Assembly: GCA_043228905.1 (NCBI GenBank)
Contig: JBHGNT010000002.1
Coordinates: 18,600,001 to 18,664,000, forward strand
Direction of reading: 5' to 3'
From: Azolla caroliniana
Lineage: Eukaryota > Plantae > Polypodiophyta
Length of the DNA stretch: 64,000 nt
Shown here: positions 35,901 to 62,080 of the stretch, piece by piece
Layout: the number at the start of each line of letters is the position of its first letter
Position numbering within the stretch: position 1 is the first letter of the stretch
Notes under the pieces: model-generated
Database searches by the model: none
What the model saw: only the letters and a program-made list of their open reading frames with translations
What the model was told of the DNA's origin: nothing
Position numbers and translations under genes: made by a program

Positions 35901-37958
35901 ACAACACTAACGATCCAGTACTTGACTAGCGTTTTGCAATATGGTGAGTACGTGTGGGCATGTGCTAATCATATTATCTCTTTGTATAGGGATGTCTCAC
36001 AATCGTGAAGACATACGACCAGGTTTAAAAGATAGGGTTGTTAAGAAAGTTTCCGAAACTAAAACCTGAAATGCTTAGCTTAACGAGTGCAATCAGGATT
36101 GTCTAGGAAACCATGCCTGAGATTGTCATCATTTTTATGTTCATACTTCATAGTACTCAGGCAGTTCACACATACAGATTGGCAGATCATATTGGAGCAC
36201 GTTTGATCGAAGAAGAATCAAAACGTGTTCTCAAGTTGCATTCAAAGCAATCAATGCCCCACTTGCTCATCAAGGAAGCTATAAAAGCATGGAGGGTTGG
36301 CTAATGCAGGATAACATATGATCCAGGCAGGGGGAGAGACACAGAGTGAAGAAAGAGAGATTAGCAAACGAGTTAGACAAACTATTAGAGGAGGCCTTTA
36401 CTTTTGTTTTAGATGATACTACTCACGATAATCTTTCGAAAGTAGGCAGCGAGAGGTAATGTGAAGAACTTACTTGTCAATCAATATAACCCCCAAACCT
36501 ACGCCAATGAAGCAGCCAGACCCCCGTGCCATCATCGCATTTGAAGAGAGCATCAATATGAAGCCAGCATCACAGAGAATCAAAAGAACTAGGGTTCCAA
36601 TAGGGTATGTATGAAGTTCAGGATGGAGGCACATGCTGAATGGCCCAATATCCCCTCCACCTACCTGTCAAATACATAGCTAACTCTTTACGAACAAGTT
36701 TCTCTGCCTCTAGAGTTTTGTTCTTCCAATGAAGCCGAGATGATTAACCTATTGGCGTCTTAGAAGACGATGAATAAATACACCACAATCTGAATATTTC
36801 AGTTTCAATGATCCTTAGAAGAAGCGTCTTGTGATATGATAGGGTTTCGGGTAGTGGCATGTACATAAATCTTTGGCTATCACCCTCCCTCCCTCCCTCC
36901 CTCCCTCCCTCCCTCCCTGAAGCATAGTGATGACAATATGACAAGCCCAATCTTGGAGTCCACGATTGATTCTACTAATGTAGGGCAAGTTGGCAAATAC
37001 GGTGGTGGGTATGAATGATCCAGAACCAAGGACTGAATCCAATCATCTGTTCTGTGGAGAGATGCAATAACACACAACAACCATGGTCTAGTCAACATGA
37101 TGGTGGATGTTCAAGCTGGTCAGTCTCCTTCTCCCACCTGCTGGTGAATCGATTATCCACGATGTGCCTGCCACAAGCACACTAAACAAAATGGCGGCAT
37201 GATCGGCAGTCAAGCACGATTCAGAGTTGGTTCCTAATATGAAGCAAGACCCCAAGGATGGAAGTCGTCTGAGTAATAAAGAAAGATCACAGCCAGGTAG
37301 GCTTAAGTCAAGCACAGGTGAAGATGAGTGGGATCTATCGTTTCCATTAAATGAACGCGCGCAAAAGATAGATTAAGAAGGTCAAAGTCAAGACGAGGAC
37401 TCACAGGATGAAGAGGCGGGACCGGCAGCTGGAGCTGGCAATCAAGGGAGACAGACTGCAGCAGGTCACTTGCAGGTTCTGGTCGACTTTGACAGAAGTA
37501 GCGCTGAACAATATCTTCCAAGCTGCTGCAAAGAAAGAAAGAAAGAAGTCGTGACTATTAGTATGATTGGCACACACACGAAGTATCAGTATGTTGAAGA
37601 AGATGGGGGAGGGGAGTGGAGTGATTAGGTGCGGCTAGATCACTGCAGGTAGAGGAAAATGAGCTTTTATGAAGAAACGAATGGATGGATGGATTGAGCA
37701 ATGAAGAAGAAGATGAAGAAGAGTAATGGATGGATGGAATGGATGGATGGATGTATGGAAGTATGGAAGGAGATACCGGGGATTGGCGAAGTGGTAGAAC
37801 TTGCCGGAGCTGGAGGAGATGACGAGGGCCACGTCGGCGTCGCAGAGGACGGAGAGCTCACGTGCCTTCTTCACCAGCCCCACGCGCCGCTTACAGAAGG
37901 TCACGTGTCGGGTACTGTCATTCTCGATGCGCTTTATCTCTATCTTGCATCGCCCCAT
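17719..37958 (-). CDS. MIKC(C)-type MADS-box transcription factor, whole gene span (7 coding exons, ~257-276 aa)
   Basis: Exons of 182/121/74/106/42/42/>=203 nt with GT-AG boundaries join into one frame in M-I-K-C domain order. The two 42-nt K exons and the 182-nt MADS exon match canonical MIKC(C) architecture. Confidence 0.93.
18187..18228 (-). CDS. MADS gene exon 6 (42 nt, K3)
   Basis: gggcag|[20 protein letters not shown]; typical L.qEN..L motif. Confidence 0.92.
18337..18378 (-). CDS. MADS gene exon 5 (42 nt)
   Basis: attag|[20 protein letters not shown]; canonical 42-nt exon. Confidence 0.9.
18660..18765 (-). CDS. MADS gene exon 4 (K2)
   Basis: tttgcag|(R)[42 protein letters not shown]-box pattern GE..L..L...L..LE...GL..I. 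Confidence 0.92.
19371..19444 (-). CDS. MADS gene exon 3 (K1 helix)
   Basis: [24 protein letters not shown](R), donor CAAAG|GTATAT. An alternative in-frame acceptor would start the exon at 19420. Confidence 0.78.
19701..19710. promoter_or_regulatory. CArG-box consensus in MADS intron 2
   Basis: CCTTTTAAGG = CC(A/T)6GG; function unproven. Confidence 0.3.
20340..21900 (-). mobile_element. Old degenerate Ty1/copia pol relic in intron 2
   Basis: Integrase [34 protein letters not shown]; boundaries approximate. Confidence 0.7.
22377..23214 (-). mobile_element. TRIM-like mini LTR element (LTRs 22377-22537 and ~23066-23214, gypsy integrase remnant)
   Basis: Two ~150-160 bp TG..CA direct repeats; minus-strand PPT GGGGGAAA; integrase [38 protein letters not shown]. 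Confidence 0.9.
26050..26950 (+). mobile_element. Ty1/copia 5' fragment (LTR 26050-26341, PBS at 26342, degenerate gag) interrupted by a younger copia
   Basis: TGTTGAG...TTACA|TGGTATCAGAG; the gag ends at the zinc-knuckle start CWYYGK, exactly where the next LTR begins. Confidence 0.8.
26951..30628 (+). mobile_element. Ty1/copia (5' LTR 26951-27434, PBS 27435-27446, gag-PR-IN-RT), 3' truncated
   Basis: [68 protein letters not shown]; scattered stop codons. Confidence 0.95.
32450..34569 (+). mobile_element. LTR retroelement 3' part: coiled-coil accessory ORF and 3' LTR (34129-34569)
   Basis: Long Glu/Lys/Gln heptad ORF broken by stops (32679-33898); LTR TGTTA...TAACA containing CCTATATAAA at 34311. 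Confidence 0.72.
34845..34980. repeat. Unclassified dispersed repeat, related copy at ~3880-4010
   Basis: Shared AAAAGC(G/A)AAGAAAAAGTGAA(C/T)TTCAAAA ... AAA(T)(T/A)CAAGGCC.A.CTTAT. Confidence 0.6.
36883..36918. repeat. (CCCT)9 microsatellite, (GGGA)n on the MADS sense strand
   Basis: Seen directly. Confidence 0.95.
37405..37525 (-). CDS. MADS gene exon 2 (I domain)
   Basis: Acceptor tttctttgCAG|CAG, reads (R)[18 protein letters not shown]...LHP, donor CCT|GTGAGT in phase 0. Confidence 0.85.
37777..37958 (-). CDS. MADS gene exon 1 (MADS domain)
   Basis: [60 protein letters not shown]; 182 nt, ends CCCCG|GTATCT. Confidence 0.95.
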
Positions 37959-37974
37959 CCCGACCGACCCTCCC

Positions 37975-38269
37975 TCTTCTTCTTCTTCTTCTTCTTCTTC
38001 TTCTTCTTCTTCTTCCGCTTCTTCTTCTCTCTGCGCAGCAGGAGCAGGCTGTGTCACACTCTGTCTGTGTGTGTGTGTGTGTGTGTGTGTCCCTCCTGCA
38101 GCCGCAGGCAAAGAAAAGGACGATCAAAGCAGCAACAATGAAATGAAGGCCCGGGAACGAAAGAGACGGACGGACGGGACGGTCTATGAGAGACCACCAG
38201 AATGTGTGTGCCTTTTAAAAAAGAACAAATGTGTATTTTAAAATTCGATTATTATTATCTTATATGTTC

Positions 38270-61250: not shown

Positions 61251-61657
61251 GTAAAAGTTGTCGAAGGACAACAATATAGCCACACAAACTCATTCATAGA
61301 GAACAATCACAACTTTCTTGAGCTTCATCATCGGTACTAATGCTACAAGTAAATCAAAGACTACACAAATGGGTTATAATATATCTATCTTGAGAATTTT
61401 ACATGTGCCGAAAACCAGATTGTTTGGTCAGTTTTGATCTTATTTACTTTTATATTTACTCAATAATATTTATTGTATGTTGATGTAATCTCTTGTTAAA
61501 AGATGTTAATATTTCTTTCTTTCGTTCTACTAATTTTGTAGTTGATGCAACCAACCAACGCTCTGTACGTGGGTGAAGAAGAAGAAGAAGAAGATGGGGA
61601 GGAGAGTCATGACAATGCTGTGTGCTGATCATGCAGCAAGTTGTTGGAGGAGCTCAC

Positions 61658-62080
61658 ATAATGAGCAGGCTCTGCAACTCAGATGTATTCATTCAATATT
61701 TCACTGCAATTACGATTAGTGAGTAATGAGGTTCTGCAACTCAGGTATATCCATTCAATGTTACTCTGATTACTATTGATGAATAATGAGGATCTGCAAC
61801 TCATATATTCACTCAATATGATTCCAATTACCAATGGTGATTAGGGAGGTTCTGCAACTCAGGTATATATTCATTCAATGTTACTCCGATTACTATTGAT
61901 TATAATGAGAAACTGCAAGTAAGATATATCCACTGAATATGACTCCGATTACTATTGATGAATAATGAGGTTCTGCAACTCAGGCATATTCATTCAATGT
62001 TATTCTGATAACACTATTGGTGAATAATGAGGTTCTGCAACTCAGATATATTTTACTCAATATGACTCCAATTACCGTTG
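61658..62080 (+). repeat. ~60-bp minisatellite x7 (alternating A/B units) derived from the paralog exon-7 donor junction
   Basis: AATAATGAGGTTCTGCAACTCAG(G/A)(T/C)ATAT.CA.TCAAT..(T/G)ACTC..ATTAC.ATTG.TG; a further unit appears at ~63945-64000. Confidence 0.95.

What the first reader, a model, noticed from the sequence alone, without database searches (positions are those of the whole stretch)
37777..61682. Hidden head-to-head MADS paralog lacking its DNA-binding core: a candidate divergent regulator/target pair
Seen: 7.8 kb from the intact gene's ATG, on the opposite strand, lie collinear homologs of exon 1 (FANPR|GT), 2 (LED..|GTGAGTCCTC), 3, 4 (CATCCATCA..|GTAACATG), 5 (EEVMLVSVE vs TEVMLMSLE, |GTTAGTT) and 7 (tgtag|TTGATG..poly-E..QLR). 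Exons 1-2 keep an open frame with intact phases and splice sites, whereas exons 3-7 carry stops or indels. Known: MIKC proteins act as dimers and tetramers, and truncated TF paralogs or pseudogene RNAs can regulate their parent genes. Inference: an ancient inverted duplication left a pseudogene, lncRNA or microprotein gene that shares the intergenic regulatory region with the parent.
Basis: partly seen in the sequence, partly recalled or inferred. Interest (0 to 1): 0.85.

Follow-up and report, generated by a model that had tools for sequence, protein, structure and literature searches.

The report
Spliced relic of fern MADS gene
An old back-to-front copy of a fern developmental-regulator gene lies 7.8 kb from its parent, has lost the parts that bind DNA and partner proteins, yet is still spliced in two related sequencing runs; it is likely a non-coding relic rather than a regulator of the parent.

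Summary
The hidden paralog is real. A fern MIKCc MADS gene (minus strand, ATG 37958, seven exons, probably CRM3-like) has an inverted, intron-containing duplicate at about 45728-62329: eight anchors, three of them intronic, lie in order. Exons 3 and 6 have no detectable homologue, and only the end of exon 4 survives. Exon 1 of the copy is the parent's 5' UTR plus less than half of the MADS box; start codon and beta-strand part are deleted, the helix remnant is out of frame. New result: contigs of two runs from related organisms splice the copy at GT..AG sites, exon 1>2 in both, then 2>7 (15.4 kb, skipping every K-domain exon) in one and 2>a repeat-derived exon in the other. So it is transcribed, but no observed isoform keeps an M or K interaction domain, which rules against a classical microProtein. 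A 101-codon frame exists, but 10 of 12 changes in it alter amino acids and one organism lacks its ATG. Similarity to the parent is too low for small-RNA silencing. Best reading: transcribed unprocessed pseudogene (0.6); cis-acting lncRNA (0.2) and short protein (0.13) remain open and untested.

The parts
37777..37958 (-). Parent exon 1 coding part (MADS box, 182 nt, phase 2 donor); 5' UTR with CA and GAA tracts lies at about 37959-38125
   Evidence: Pfam SRF-TF E 1.9e-24; covered by X1 and X2 contigs
37405..37525 (-). Parent exon 2 (I region, 121 nt)
   Evidence: splice sites in sequence; X1 contig continues into exon 3 (loose end at 37404, read)
19421..37404 (-). Parent intron 2, 17,984 nt, holding a decayed copia-type element and three blocks shared with the copy
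19371..19420 (-). Parent exon 3 (K1, 50 nt); no homologue found in the copy
18660..18765 (-). Parent exon 4 (K2, 106 nt)
   Evidence: Pfam K-box E 0.0012, below the curated cut-off for this single exon
18337..18378 (-). Parent exon 5 (42 nt)
18187..18228 (-). Parent exon 6 (42 nt); no homologue found in the copy
17719..17982 (-). Parent exon 7 (acidic C region); 268-aa protein if read through to the stop, or a GC donor after 17780; 3' end not tested
45728..45941 (+). Copy exon 1: 5' UTR homologue (about 45760-45855) plus deleted MADS box; 5' end is only the start of the X1 contig
45875..45898 (+). Remnant of the MADS recognition helix (parent codons 20-27), out of frame with the rest
   Evidence: 17 of 24 nt, best non-self match in the window on both strands, next best 15
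45787..45789 (+). ATG inside the CA-repeat homologue; opens a 101-codon frame on the 1-2-7 join and an 85-codon frame on the 1-2-X join
   Evidence: present in L001 and P0129, absent in X1
45942..46069 (+). Copy intron 1 (128 nt, GT..AG), spliced
   Evidence: joint in one contig each of X1 and X2
46070..46133 (+). Copy exon 2 (64 nt; net 57 nt shorter than the parent's); ATG at 46083 opens a 45-codon frame on the 1-2-7 join
48890..49200 (+). Intron blocks homologous to parent 36327-35970
   Evidence: E 6e-10 and 2e-3; single other place in the window
49552..49812 (+). New exon X inside a repeat (first of two 640-bp copies; related sequence at 2754-3263); 3' end unknown
   Evidence: joint 46133>49552 GT..AG in one X2 contig, 3 differences; the second repeat copy differs at 9 of 261 places
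55592..56028 (+). Intron block homologous to parent 25084-24631
   Evidence: 60% over 477 columns, E 4e-21
58405..58522 (+). Last 19 nt of exon 4 and its donor, tandemly repeated (44-bp unit, 2.7 copies); not in any observed joint
58849..58891 (+). Exon 5 remnant, 43 nt (one base more than the parent's), skipped in the X1 isoform
61542..62329 (+). Copy last exon: exon 7 homologue, stop ending 61628, then a 62-bp tandem array (61667-62075) made from the exon 7 end
   Evidence: joint 46133>61542 GT..AG in one X1 contig; X2 contig covers 61575-62329, X1 contigs 61911-62281

Best explanation
The plus-strand locus is an inverted, intron-containing duplicate of the neighbouring fern MIKCc MADS gene that has lost its MADS and K domains but is still spliced, and it is likely a non-coding relic transcript (transcribed unprocessed pseudogene) with no sequence-specific action on its parent. 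Shown: collinear exon and intron homology; loss of exons 3, 6 and most of 4; deletion of the start codon region and beta-strand part of the MADS box; GT..AG joints 1>2, 2>7 and 2>X in contigs of two runs. Inferred: one local inverted duplication carried the 5' UTR and probably a core promoter along; after loss of function, deletions and repeat insertions removed the K-exon acceptors, so the spliceosome joins the surviving strong sites or a cryptic site in a repeat; transcription persists because nothing has yet removed the promoter.
For: Homology and order. Deletion model of exon 1 scores above the ATG-anchored model under three gap settings (113.7 vs 63.3, 90.0 vs 47.6, 63.5 vs 52.5); 82-87 of 180 MADS nt have a partner. 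Splicing. Two different downstream exons in two runs, one from a repeat, as expected of unconstrained splicing. In the 101-codon frame 10 of 12 distinct changes seen in L001 and X1 alter the amino acid; neutral expectation 77%, P=0.0025 under omega 0.2, 0.018 under 0.3. Its ATG is absent in X1. No Pfam family in three pieces of the frame; tblastn of the parent finds nothing under E 1.7. Copy exons 1-2 differ from X1 at 18 of 274 places, parent pieces at 10 of 359 (p=0.03, partly overlapping pieces). Longest word shared with the parent mRNA 11 nt; best 21-mers have 4-5 mismatches; no Rfam match. Tandem duplicates and decayed copies are common among fern MIKCc genes.
Against: Transcription and all four used splice sites have lasted since a duplication much older than the split from organism A (about 70% identity to the parent against 92% to X1). 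An ATG-opened frame of 101 codons arose in only 4-7% of simulated neutral decays (stop-free frames in 17-35%), and the frame is stop-free in window, L001 and the rebuilt X1 exon 1. The amino-acid test rests on 12 changes, only 14 of X1's 18 substitutions in exons 1-2 were listed, omega 0.5 is not excluded (P=0.11), and the parent control is uninformative (3 of 4 listed changes non-synonymous; long branch). Changes are skewed AT>GC, which could inflate the non-synonymous count. Each joint rests on one contig per run, and the runs are RNA only by the tool's guess. Absence of function was not tested.
Confidence: 0.6

Rival explanations
1. The copy has been kept as a cis-acting lncRNA gene: its divergent transcription, or the RNA at its own locus, would set the chromatin or loop state of the shared 7.8-kb interval and so tune the parent MADS gene.
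For: Spliced in two organisms, one about 8% diverged in exon 1; both genes are detected in the same two runs; plant MADS genes are often controlled in cis by lncRNAs (FLC, MAF4, AG; passages of PMC10226578); such a mechanism needs no sequence match or reading frame.
Against: No expression correlation, chromatin or perturbation data. Exons are not more conserved than introns: 8 of 238 exon against 17 of 2381 intron positions differ from L001. Unused donors of exons 4 and 5 are as well kept as used ones. The known MADS lncRNAs overlap their target gene; this one starts over 7 kb away. Co-detection in two runs chosen by the parent's sequence is no evidence of co-regulation.
Confidence: 0.2
2. The copy is a young chimeric gene for a short, probably disordered protein (basic N-part from old UTR and frameshifted MADS sequence, I-region stub, acidic tail), 45 to 101 residues long.
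For: 101-codon frame across the 1-2-7 join with stop in the last exon; net deletions in exon 2 (57 nt) and at the start of exon 7 (9 nt) keep the frame; 4-7% in neutral simulations; ATG kept in window, L001 and P0129; a second ATG at 46083 in a purine-3/G+4 context (context rule recalled).
Against: 10 of 12 changes non-synonymous; no in-frame ATG in X1's exon 1 as far as the contig reaches; the run that shows the 2>7 joint is the one without the ATG, so ATG plus 1-2-7 was not seen together; an out-of-frame upstream ATG at 45755; no domain; the only database relative is one near-identical unnamed gene call, 1 of 2 candidates.
Confidence: 0.13
3. The copy is a dominant-negative microProtein gene or a source of small RNAs or decoy RNA that acts on the parent by sequence.
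For: Origin by duplication and domain loss is how trans-microProteins arise (passage of PMC6003976); inverted orientation next to the parent.
Against: Observed isoforms keep neither MADS dimer strands nor any K exon. The two arms are transcribed away from each other; longest shared word 11 nt, best antisense 21-mer in the spliced forms has 6 mismatches; no 150-nt window of the 1-2-7 form folds below MFEI -0.67; no Rfam match.
Confidence: 0.04
4. The joined contigs come from another locus (a processed copy or a further paralog elsewhere) and the window's copy is silent.
For: The runs are not on record as RNA; X1 is 92% alike in exon 1; no genome was held to count copies.
Against: Two different joined forms use this locus's own GT..AG sites; the 30 letters after the X1 joint match 61545 onward exactly; X2's exon X differs at 3 of 261 places and X2's unique intronic contigs at 0-5 per 191-400 nt; neither run covers 38203-41814.
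Confidence: 0.03

Closest known systems
Transcribed duplicated (unprocessed) pseudogenes and pseudogene-derived lincRNAs (abstract of PMC5644071; Xist from Lnx3, abstract start of PMC12101419)
   Same: Protein-coding ancestor, introns kept, coding capacity lost, old splice sites reused, repeat sequence taken in as a new exon, tandem repeats in the last exon.
   Different: Plant, adjacent and head-to-head to its parent; no function shown; about 70% identity in short pieces, invisible to tblastn.
Fern CRM3-like MIKCc genes and their tandem arrays (Ceric.27G057900; Adiantum GOP47_0018752-57)
   Same: The parent groups with these at 98/99 support; tandem duplicates, K-only neighbours and likely pseudogenes are reported in Ceratopteris and Lygodium (passages of PMC11224435 and PMC9477723); Adiantum has six consecutive locus tags, several of 104-138 aa.
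   Different: Those copies keep a recognisable MADS or K domain; this one keeps neither yet is spliced. The parent sits on a long branch and no CRM1 or CRM6 protein was in the tree.
Trans-microProteins (PMC6003976, passages)
   Same: Separate transcription unit derived from a multi-domain transcription-factor gene by duplication and domain loss; frame under 140 codons.
   Different: No interaction domain is retained; translation not shown; no purifying selection seen.
lncRNAs that control MADS genes in cis: COOLAIR, COLDAIR, COLDWRAP, MAS, AG-incRNA4; neighbour-acting APOLO (PMC10226578, passages)
   Same: Non-coding spliced RNA next to a MIKC gene.
   Different: The MADS-linked ones overlap their target; none is described in those passages as a decayed paralog; no regulatory evidence here.
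MIRNA or siRNA loci born by inverted gene duplication (recalled: MIR161/MIR163, MIR824; no call)
   Same: Inverted duplicate near or related to the target gene.
   Different: Those need both arms in one transcript; here the arms point apart, and no 21-mer match or hairpin was found.

Membership tests
Transcribed unprocessed pseudogene | Homologous to an intact gene, with introns retained | tested here: met
Transcribed unprocessed pseudogene | Parent's coding capacity disabled | tested here: met
   start codon region and 93-98 of 180 MADS nt without partner, exons 3 and 6 missing, exon 5 of 43 nt, early stop in exon 7
Transcribed unprocessed pseudogene | Transcribed | tested here: met
   three GT..AG joints in contigs of 2 of the 4 runs laid; runs are of relatives and RNA by inference
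Transcribed unprocessed pseudogene | No purifying selection on a reading frame | tested here: inconclusive
   10 of 12 changes non-synonymous, fits neutrality, excludes omega 0.3 at P=0.018 but not 0.5; parent control too small
Trans-microProtein | Own transcription unit related to a larger multi-domain gene | tested here: met
Trans-microProtein | Keeps a protein-interaction domain of the parent | tested here: not met
   K exons skipped or lost, MADS codons 34/35-49/52 deleted, no Pfam hit
Trans-microProtein | Translated and binds the parent complex | not testable with these tools
   needs ribosome profiling, proteomics, interaction assay
Inverted-duplication siRNA/miRNA locus | Fold-back or antisense segment matching the target at 21 nt with few mismatches | tested here: not met
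Cis-acting lncRNA | Long, spliced, without a constrained reading frame | tested here: inconclusive
   over 1 kb and spliced; coding status as above
Cis-acting lncRNA | Perturbing it changes the neighbour's expression or chromatin | not testable with these tools
   bench test
MIKCc MADS gene (parent) | MADS exon, short I exon, K exons of about 100/42/42 nt, open frame | tested here: met
   182/121/50/106/42/42 nt, open frame; typical sizes recalled
CRM3-like clade (parent) | Groups with CRM3-like proteins rather than CRM1, CRM6 or Sm1 | tested here: inconclusive
   top full-length matches and tree partners are Ceric.27G057900 and relatives, listed within the CRM3 block of a published tree; CRM1 and CRM6 were not in my tree

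The most novel reading that the evidence does not exclude
A MADS paralog has been converted into a regulatory gene for its own parent: stripped of both interaction domains, re-spliced from exon 2 to exon 7, and kept as a divergent cis-acting lncRNA or as a new short basic-acidic protein. It would be a plant parallel to the Lnx3-to-Xist route caught beside its ancestor, and a class that protein-based searches miss.
Probability: 0.2. Interest if true: 0.78.

Novelty: new member of a known kind. Interest (0 to 1): 0.42.

Why it matters
It is a well-anchored case of a transcription-factor gene turning into a spliced non-coding transcript, with parent, deletion history, reused splice sites and a repeat-derived exon all visible at one locus, and with orthologues at 98% and 92% identity for comparison. 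Standard tblastn does not see it, so such relics are likely missed in MADS gene counts and filed as intergenic lncRNAs. If it proved to tune the parent, it would show a route from duplicate to regulator in a fern gene family whose control is largely unknown. As it stands there is no evidence of function.

Tried and rejected
Whole-genome search: no genome is held, so copy number of the intron anchors and further paralogs were not counted. My first model of exon 1 (full-length, eroded MADS box starting at ATG 45755) was dropped when the parent's UTR was included. Exon 3 and exon 6 homologues: none above null (a 36-nt hit at 61233-61268 has E 0.14). Inverted homology between the two upstream regions and downstream of exon 7: none beyond repeats. 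CArG consensus (recalled): 4 matches in the window against 6.3 expected, none in 38000-45750. Rfam: 0 matches. Neither run covers 55476-58530; this is no proof of skipping except where the X1 contig joins across it. Contig depths were not used to rank the genes. Protein atlas look-ups gave no answer. One paper on plant pseudogenes was not held. No complex or structure prediction was run, since no domain is left to test. Earlier findings: three look-ups returned nothing. Literature searches showed no title or abstract start describing a spliced, domain-less MADS paralog head-to-head with its parent; I saw only listings for most, and unread supplements of fern genome papers (for example the MADS table of PMC9477723) may list such loci.
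Full report
Parent gene. The minus strand holds a MIKCc MADS gene with exons 37958-37777, 37525-37405, 19420-19371, 18765-18660, 18378-18337, 18228-18187 and 17982 onward; joined, they give an open frame of 248 codons to 17780, or 268 if exon 7 reads to its stop. Exon 1 matches Pfam SRF-TF (E 1.9e-24) and exon 4 K-box weakly (E 0.0012); solved MEF2/SRF structures match exon 1. 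Among the 120 listed of 1572 hits, the best single-domain named matches are fern proteins, Adiantum 76% and Ceratopteris 74%. In a 22-protein tree the parent groups with Ceric.27G057900, a Pteridium and three Adiantum proteins at 98/99, on a long branch and without CRM1 or CRM6 rows; Ceric.27G057900 stands in the CRM3 block of a published tree (text of a supplementary figure of PMC11224435). So: a fern, genus not determined, gene probably CRM3-like. The 18-kb intron 2 is bridged by an X1 contig whose loose end is exon 3 (read).

Is the paralog real? Yes. All quoted motifs are present. Searched over 38700-64000, exons 1, 5 and 7 beat all 60 shuffles, exon 2 lands correctly but not above the shuffle maximum, exons 3, 4 and 6 are within the null. 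In anchored windows exon 2, intron 1, the exon 4 end, exon 5 and exon 7 beat all 500 shuffles; exon 3 (p=0.14) and exon 6 (p=0.38) do not. Three blocks of intron 2 match in order at 60-69% (E 6e-10, 2e-3, 4e-21) and have no other copy in the window. Eight anchors are collinear on one strand; two non-collinear repeat hits were left out. This is a DNA-level inverted duplication, not a retrocopy. Genome-wide copy number of the intron blocks is untested.

What is left of the MADS box. With the parent's 5' UTR included, three gap settings agree that 45760-45855 is the UTR homologue (CA repeat, GAA tract), that the start codon region is deleted, that codons 20-33 survive, and that codons 34/35 to 49/52 are gone; 82-87 of 180 nt have a partner. 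The surviving piece at 45875-45898 is the best non-self match in the window (17 of 24 nt, next 15) but is out of frame with the last eight codons. By established MADS structure (recalled) the kept piece is part of the recognition helix and the lost piece the beta strands of the dimer. The ATG at 45787 lies in the old UTR.

Transcription. Of 22 runs listed I laid four, then two. X1 (organism A) and X2 (organism B) each have one contig joining 45941 to 46070 (GT..AG). X1 then joins 46133 to 61542 (15,408 nt, GT..AG), skipping the remnants of exons 4 and 5; X2 joins 46133 to 49552, a cryptic acceptor in a repeat. Contigs of both runs cover the last exon into and beyond the 62-bp array, to 62281 and 62329. 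The runs are RNA only by the tool's guess; the joints, the parent's exon 2-3 join and the lack of cover over 38203-41814 argue for RNA, while X2's four intronic contigs at 95-100% may be pre-mRNA or DNA. Contigs give no start, end, level or tissue. Twenty-two further joints were not shown.

Coding potential. The 1-2-7 join carries a 101-codon frame from 45787 and a 45-codon frame from 46083; the 1-2-X join an 85-codon frame. No piece matches Pfam. A DNA orthologue from a metagenome contig (L001, 98.5% over 2.6 kb; 1 match in the scan) and one unnamed gene call (P0129) keep the ATG; X1 lacks it and has no in-frame ATG within its contig, though the frame is stop-free there. Ten of 12 distinct changes in exons 1-2 of the frame are non-synonymous (one lies next to the X1 indel); neutral expectation is 77%, and omega 0.2 or 0.3 is rejected (P 0.0025, 0.018), 0.5 is not. 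Against my reading: the parent's four listed changes are 3 non-synonymous to 1, four of X1's substitutions were not listed, shuffles give such a frame in 0.2-1% and a fairer null, simulated decay of the parent's own exons, in 4-7% with ATG and 17-35% without. The frame is therefore slightly unusual but shows no constraint. Whatever is translated has neither M nor K domain, so the defining feature of a microProtein (passages of PMC6003976) is not met.

RNA-level action. The spliced copy shares at most 11 consecutive non-simple bases with the parent mRNA; best 21-mers have 4-5 mismatches in sense and 6 in antisense; no strong hairpin and no Rfam match. The genes point away from each other, so no single fold-back transcript is expected. 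Exons of the copy are not better conserved than its introns; against L001 they are worse (8 of 238 against 17 of 2381, p=0.001). The upstream regions show no inverted homology. A cis effect through transcription or chromatin needs none of this and was not testable; plant MADS genes have such lncRNAs, though overlapping ones (passages of PMC10226578).

Comparison and verdict. Tandem duplication and decay are ordinary for fern MIKCc genes: tandem CRM1/CRM6 copies and K-only neighbours in Ceratopteris, possible CRM3 pseudogenes in Lygodium (passages of PMC11224435), four potential pseudogenes among 39 Ceratopteris loci (passages and one section of PMC9477723), six consecutive Adiantum locus tags. 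Conversion of coding genes to lincRNAs is a known route (abstract of PMC5644071). Passages of PMC8386757 did not bear on this locus. The finding is a new member of a known kind, a transcribed unprocessed pseudogene, with an unusually clear anatomy and direct splice evidence. Odds: relic 0.6, cis-acting lncRNA 0.2, short protein 0.13, microProtein or small-RNA source 0.04, transcripts from elsewhere 0.03. Interest 0.42.

Noticed in passing
window 58405-58522 and 61667-62075: Two donor regions of the copy that are no longer used are tandemly amplified: exon 4 end (44-bp unit, 2.7 copies) and exon 7 end (62-bp unit, 6.8 copies); an X2 contig lacks one 62-bp unit.
   Followed up: partly
window 45768-46133 and 37405-37958: Changes specific to the window's lineage cluster in the 5' exons of both genes and are mostly AT>GC; copy exons differ from L001 4.7 times more than the introns. 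GC-biased conversion near transcription starts is one untested explanation.
   Followed up: partly
window 45788: The one base by which the window exceeds X1 both closes the upstream frame and makes the in-frame ATG; which state is ancestral could not be told.
   Followed up: partly
window 37777-37958 (X1 record 2; P0005): A second intact-looking MADS gene with the same FANP exon end, about 91% alike in DNA, is present in X1 and X2 and matches P0005; it lies outside the window.
   Followed up: no
window 17780-17774: The parent's exon 7 has a GC dinucleotide where related genes may have a last donor; GC-AG intron or read-through was not decided.
   Followed up: no
window 37426: X1 and X2 carry a 12-nt in-frame insertion in the parent's exon 2 relative to the window.
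   Followed up: no
window 26595-30660: Decayed copia-type retroelement (RVT_2 hits, E 1e-27 and 2e-32) inside the parent's intron 2, opposite to the gene; related gag at 6117-6611.
   Followed up: partly
window 52975-53980, 58938-61180, 62456-63911, 21567-21894: Family of LINE-like reverse-transcriptase remnants (RVT_1 E 5e-13 at 62563-62973) inserted several times in and after the copy and once in the parent's intron; many contigs of X2 match them.
   Followed up: partly
window 45451-45662: A repeat also found at 22377-22537 and 23072-23214, with a 31-bp tandem unit, ends about 70 bp upstream of the copy's first covered base, followed by an AT-rich TATA-like stretch near 45689; it could supply or alter the promoter.
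   Followed up: no
window 1-17000: Mostly gypsy- and copia-type remnants (integrase, RT, gag hits); no other host gene seen among ORFs of 100 codons or more.
   Followed up: partly
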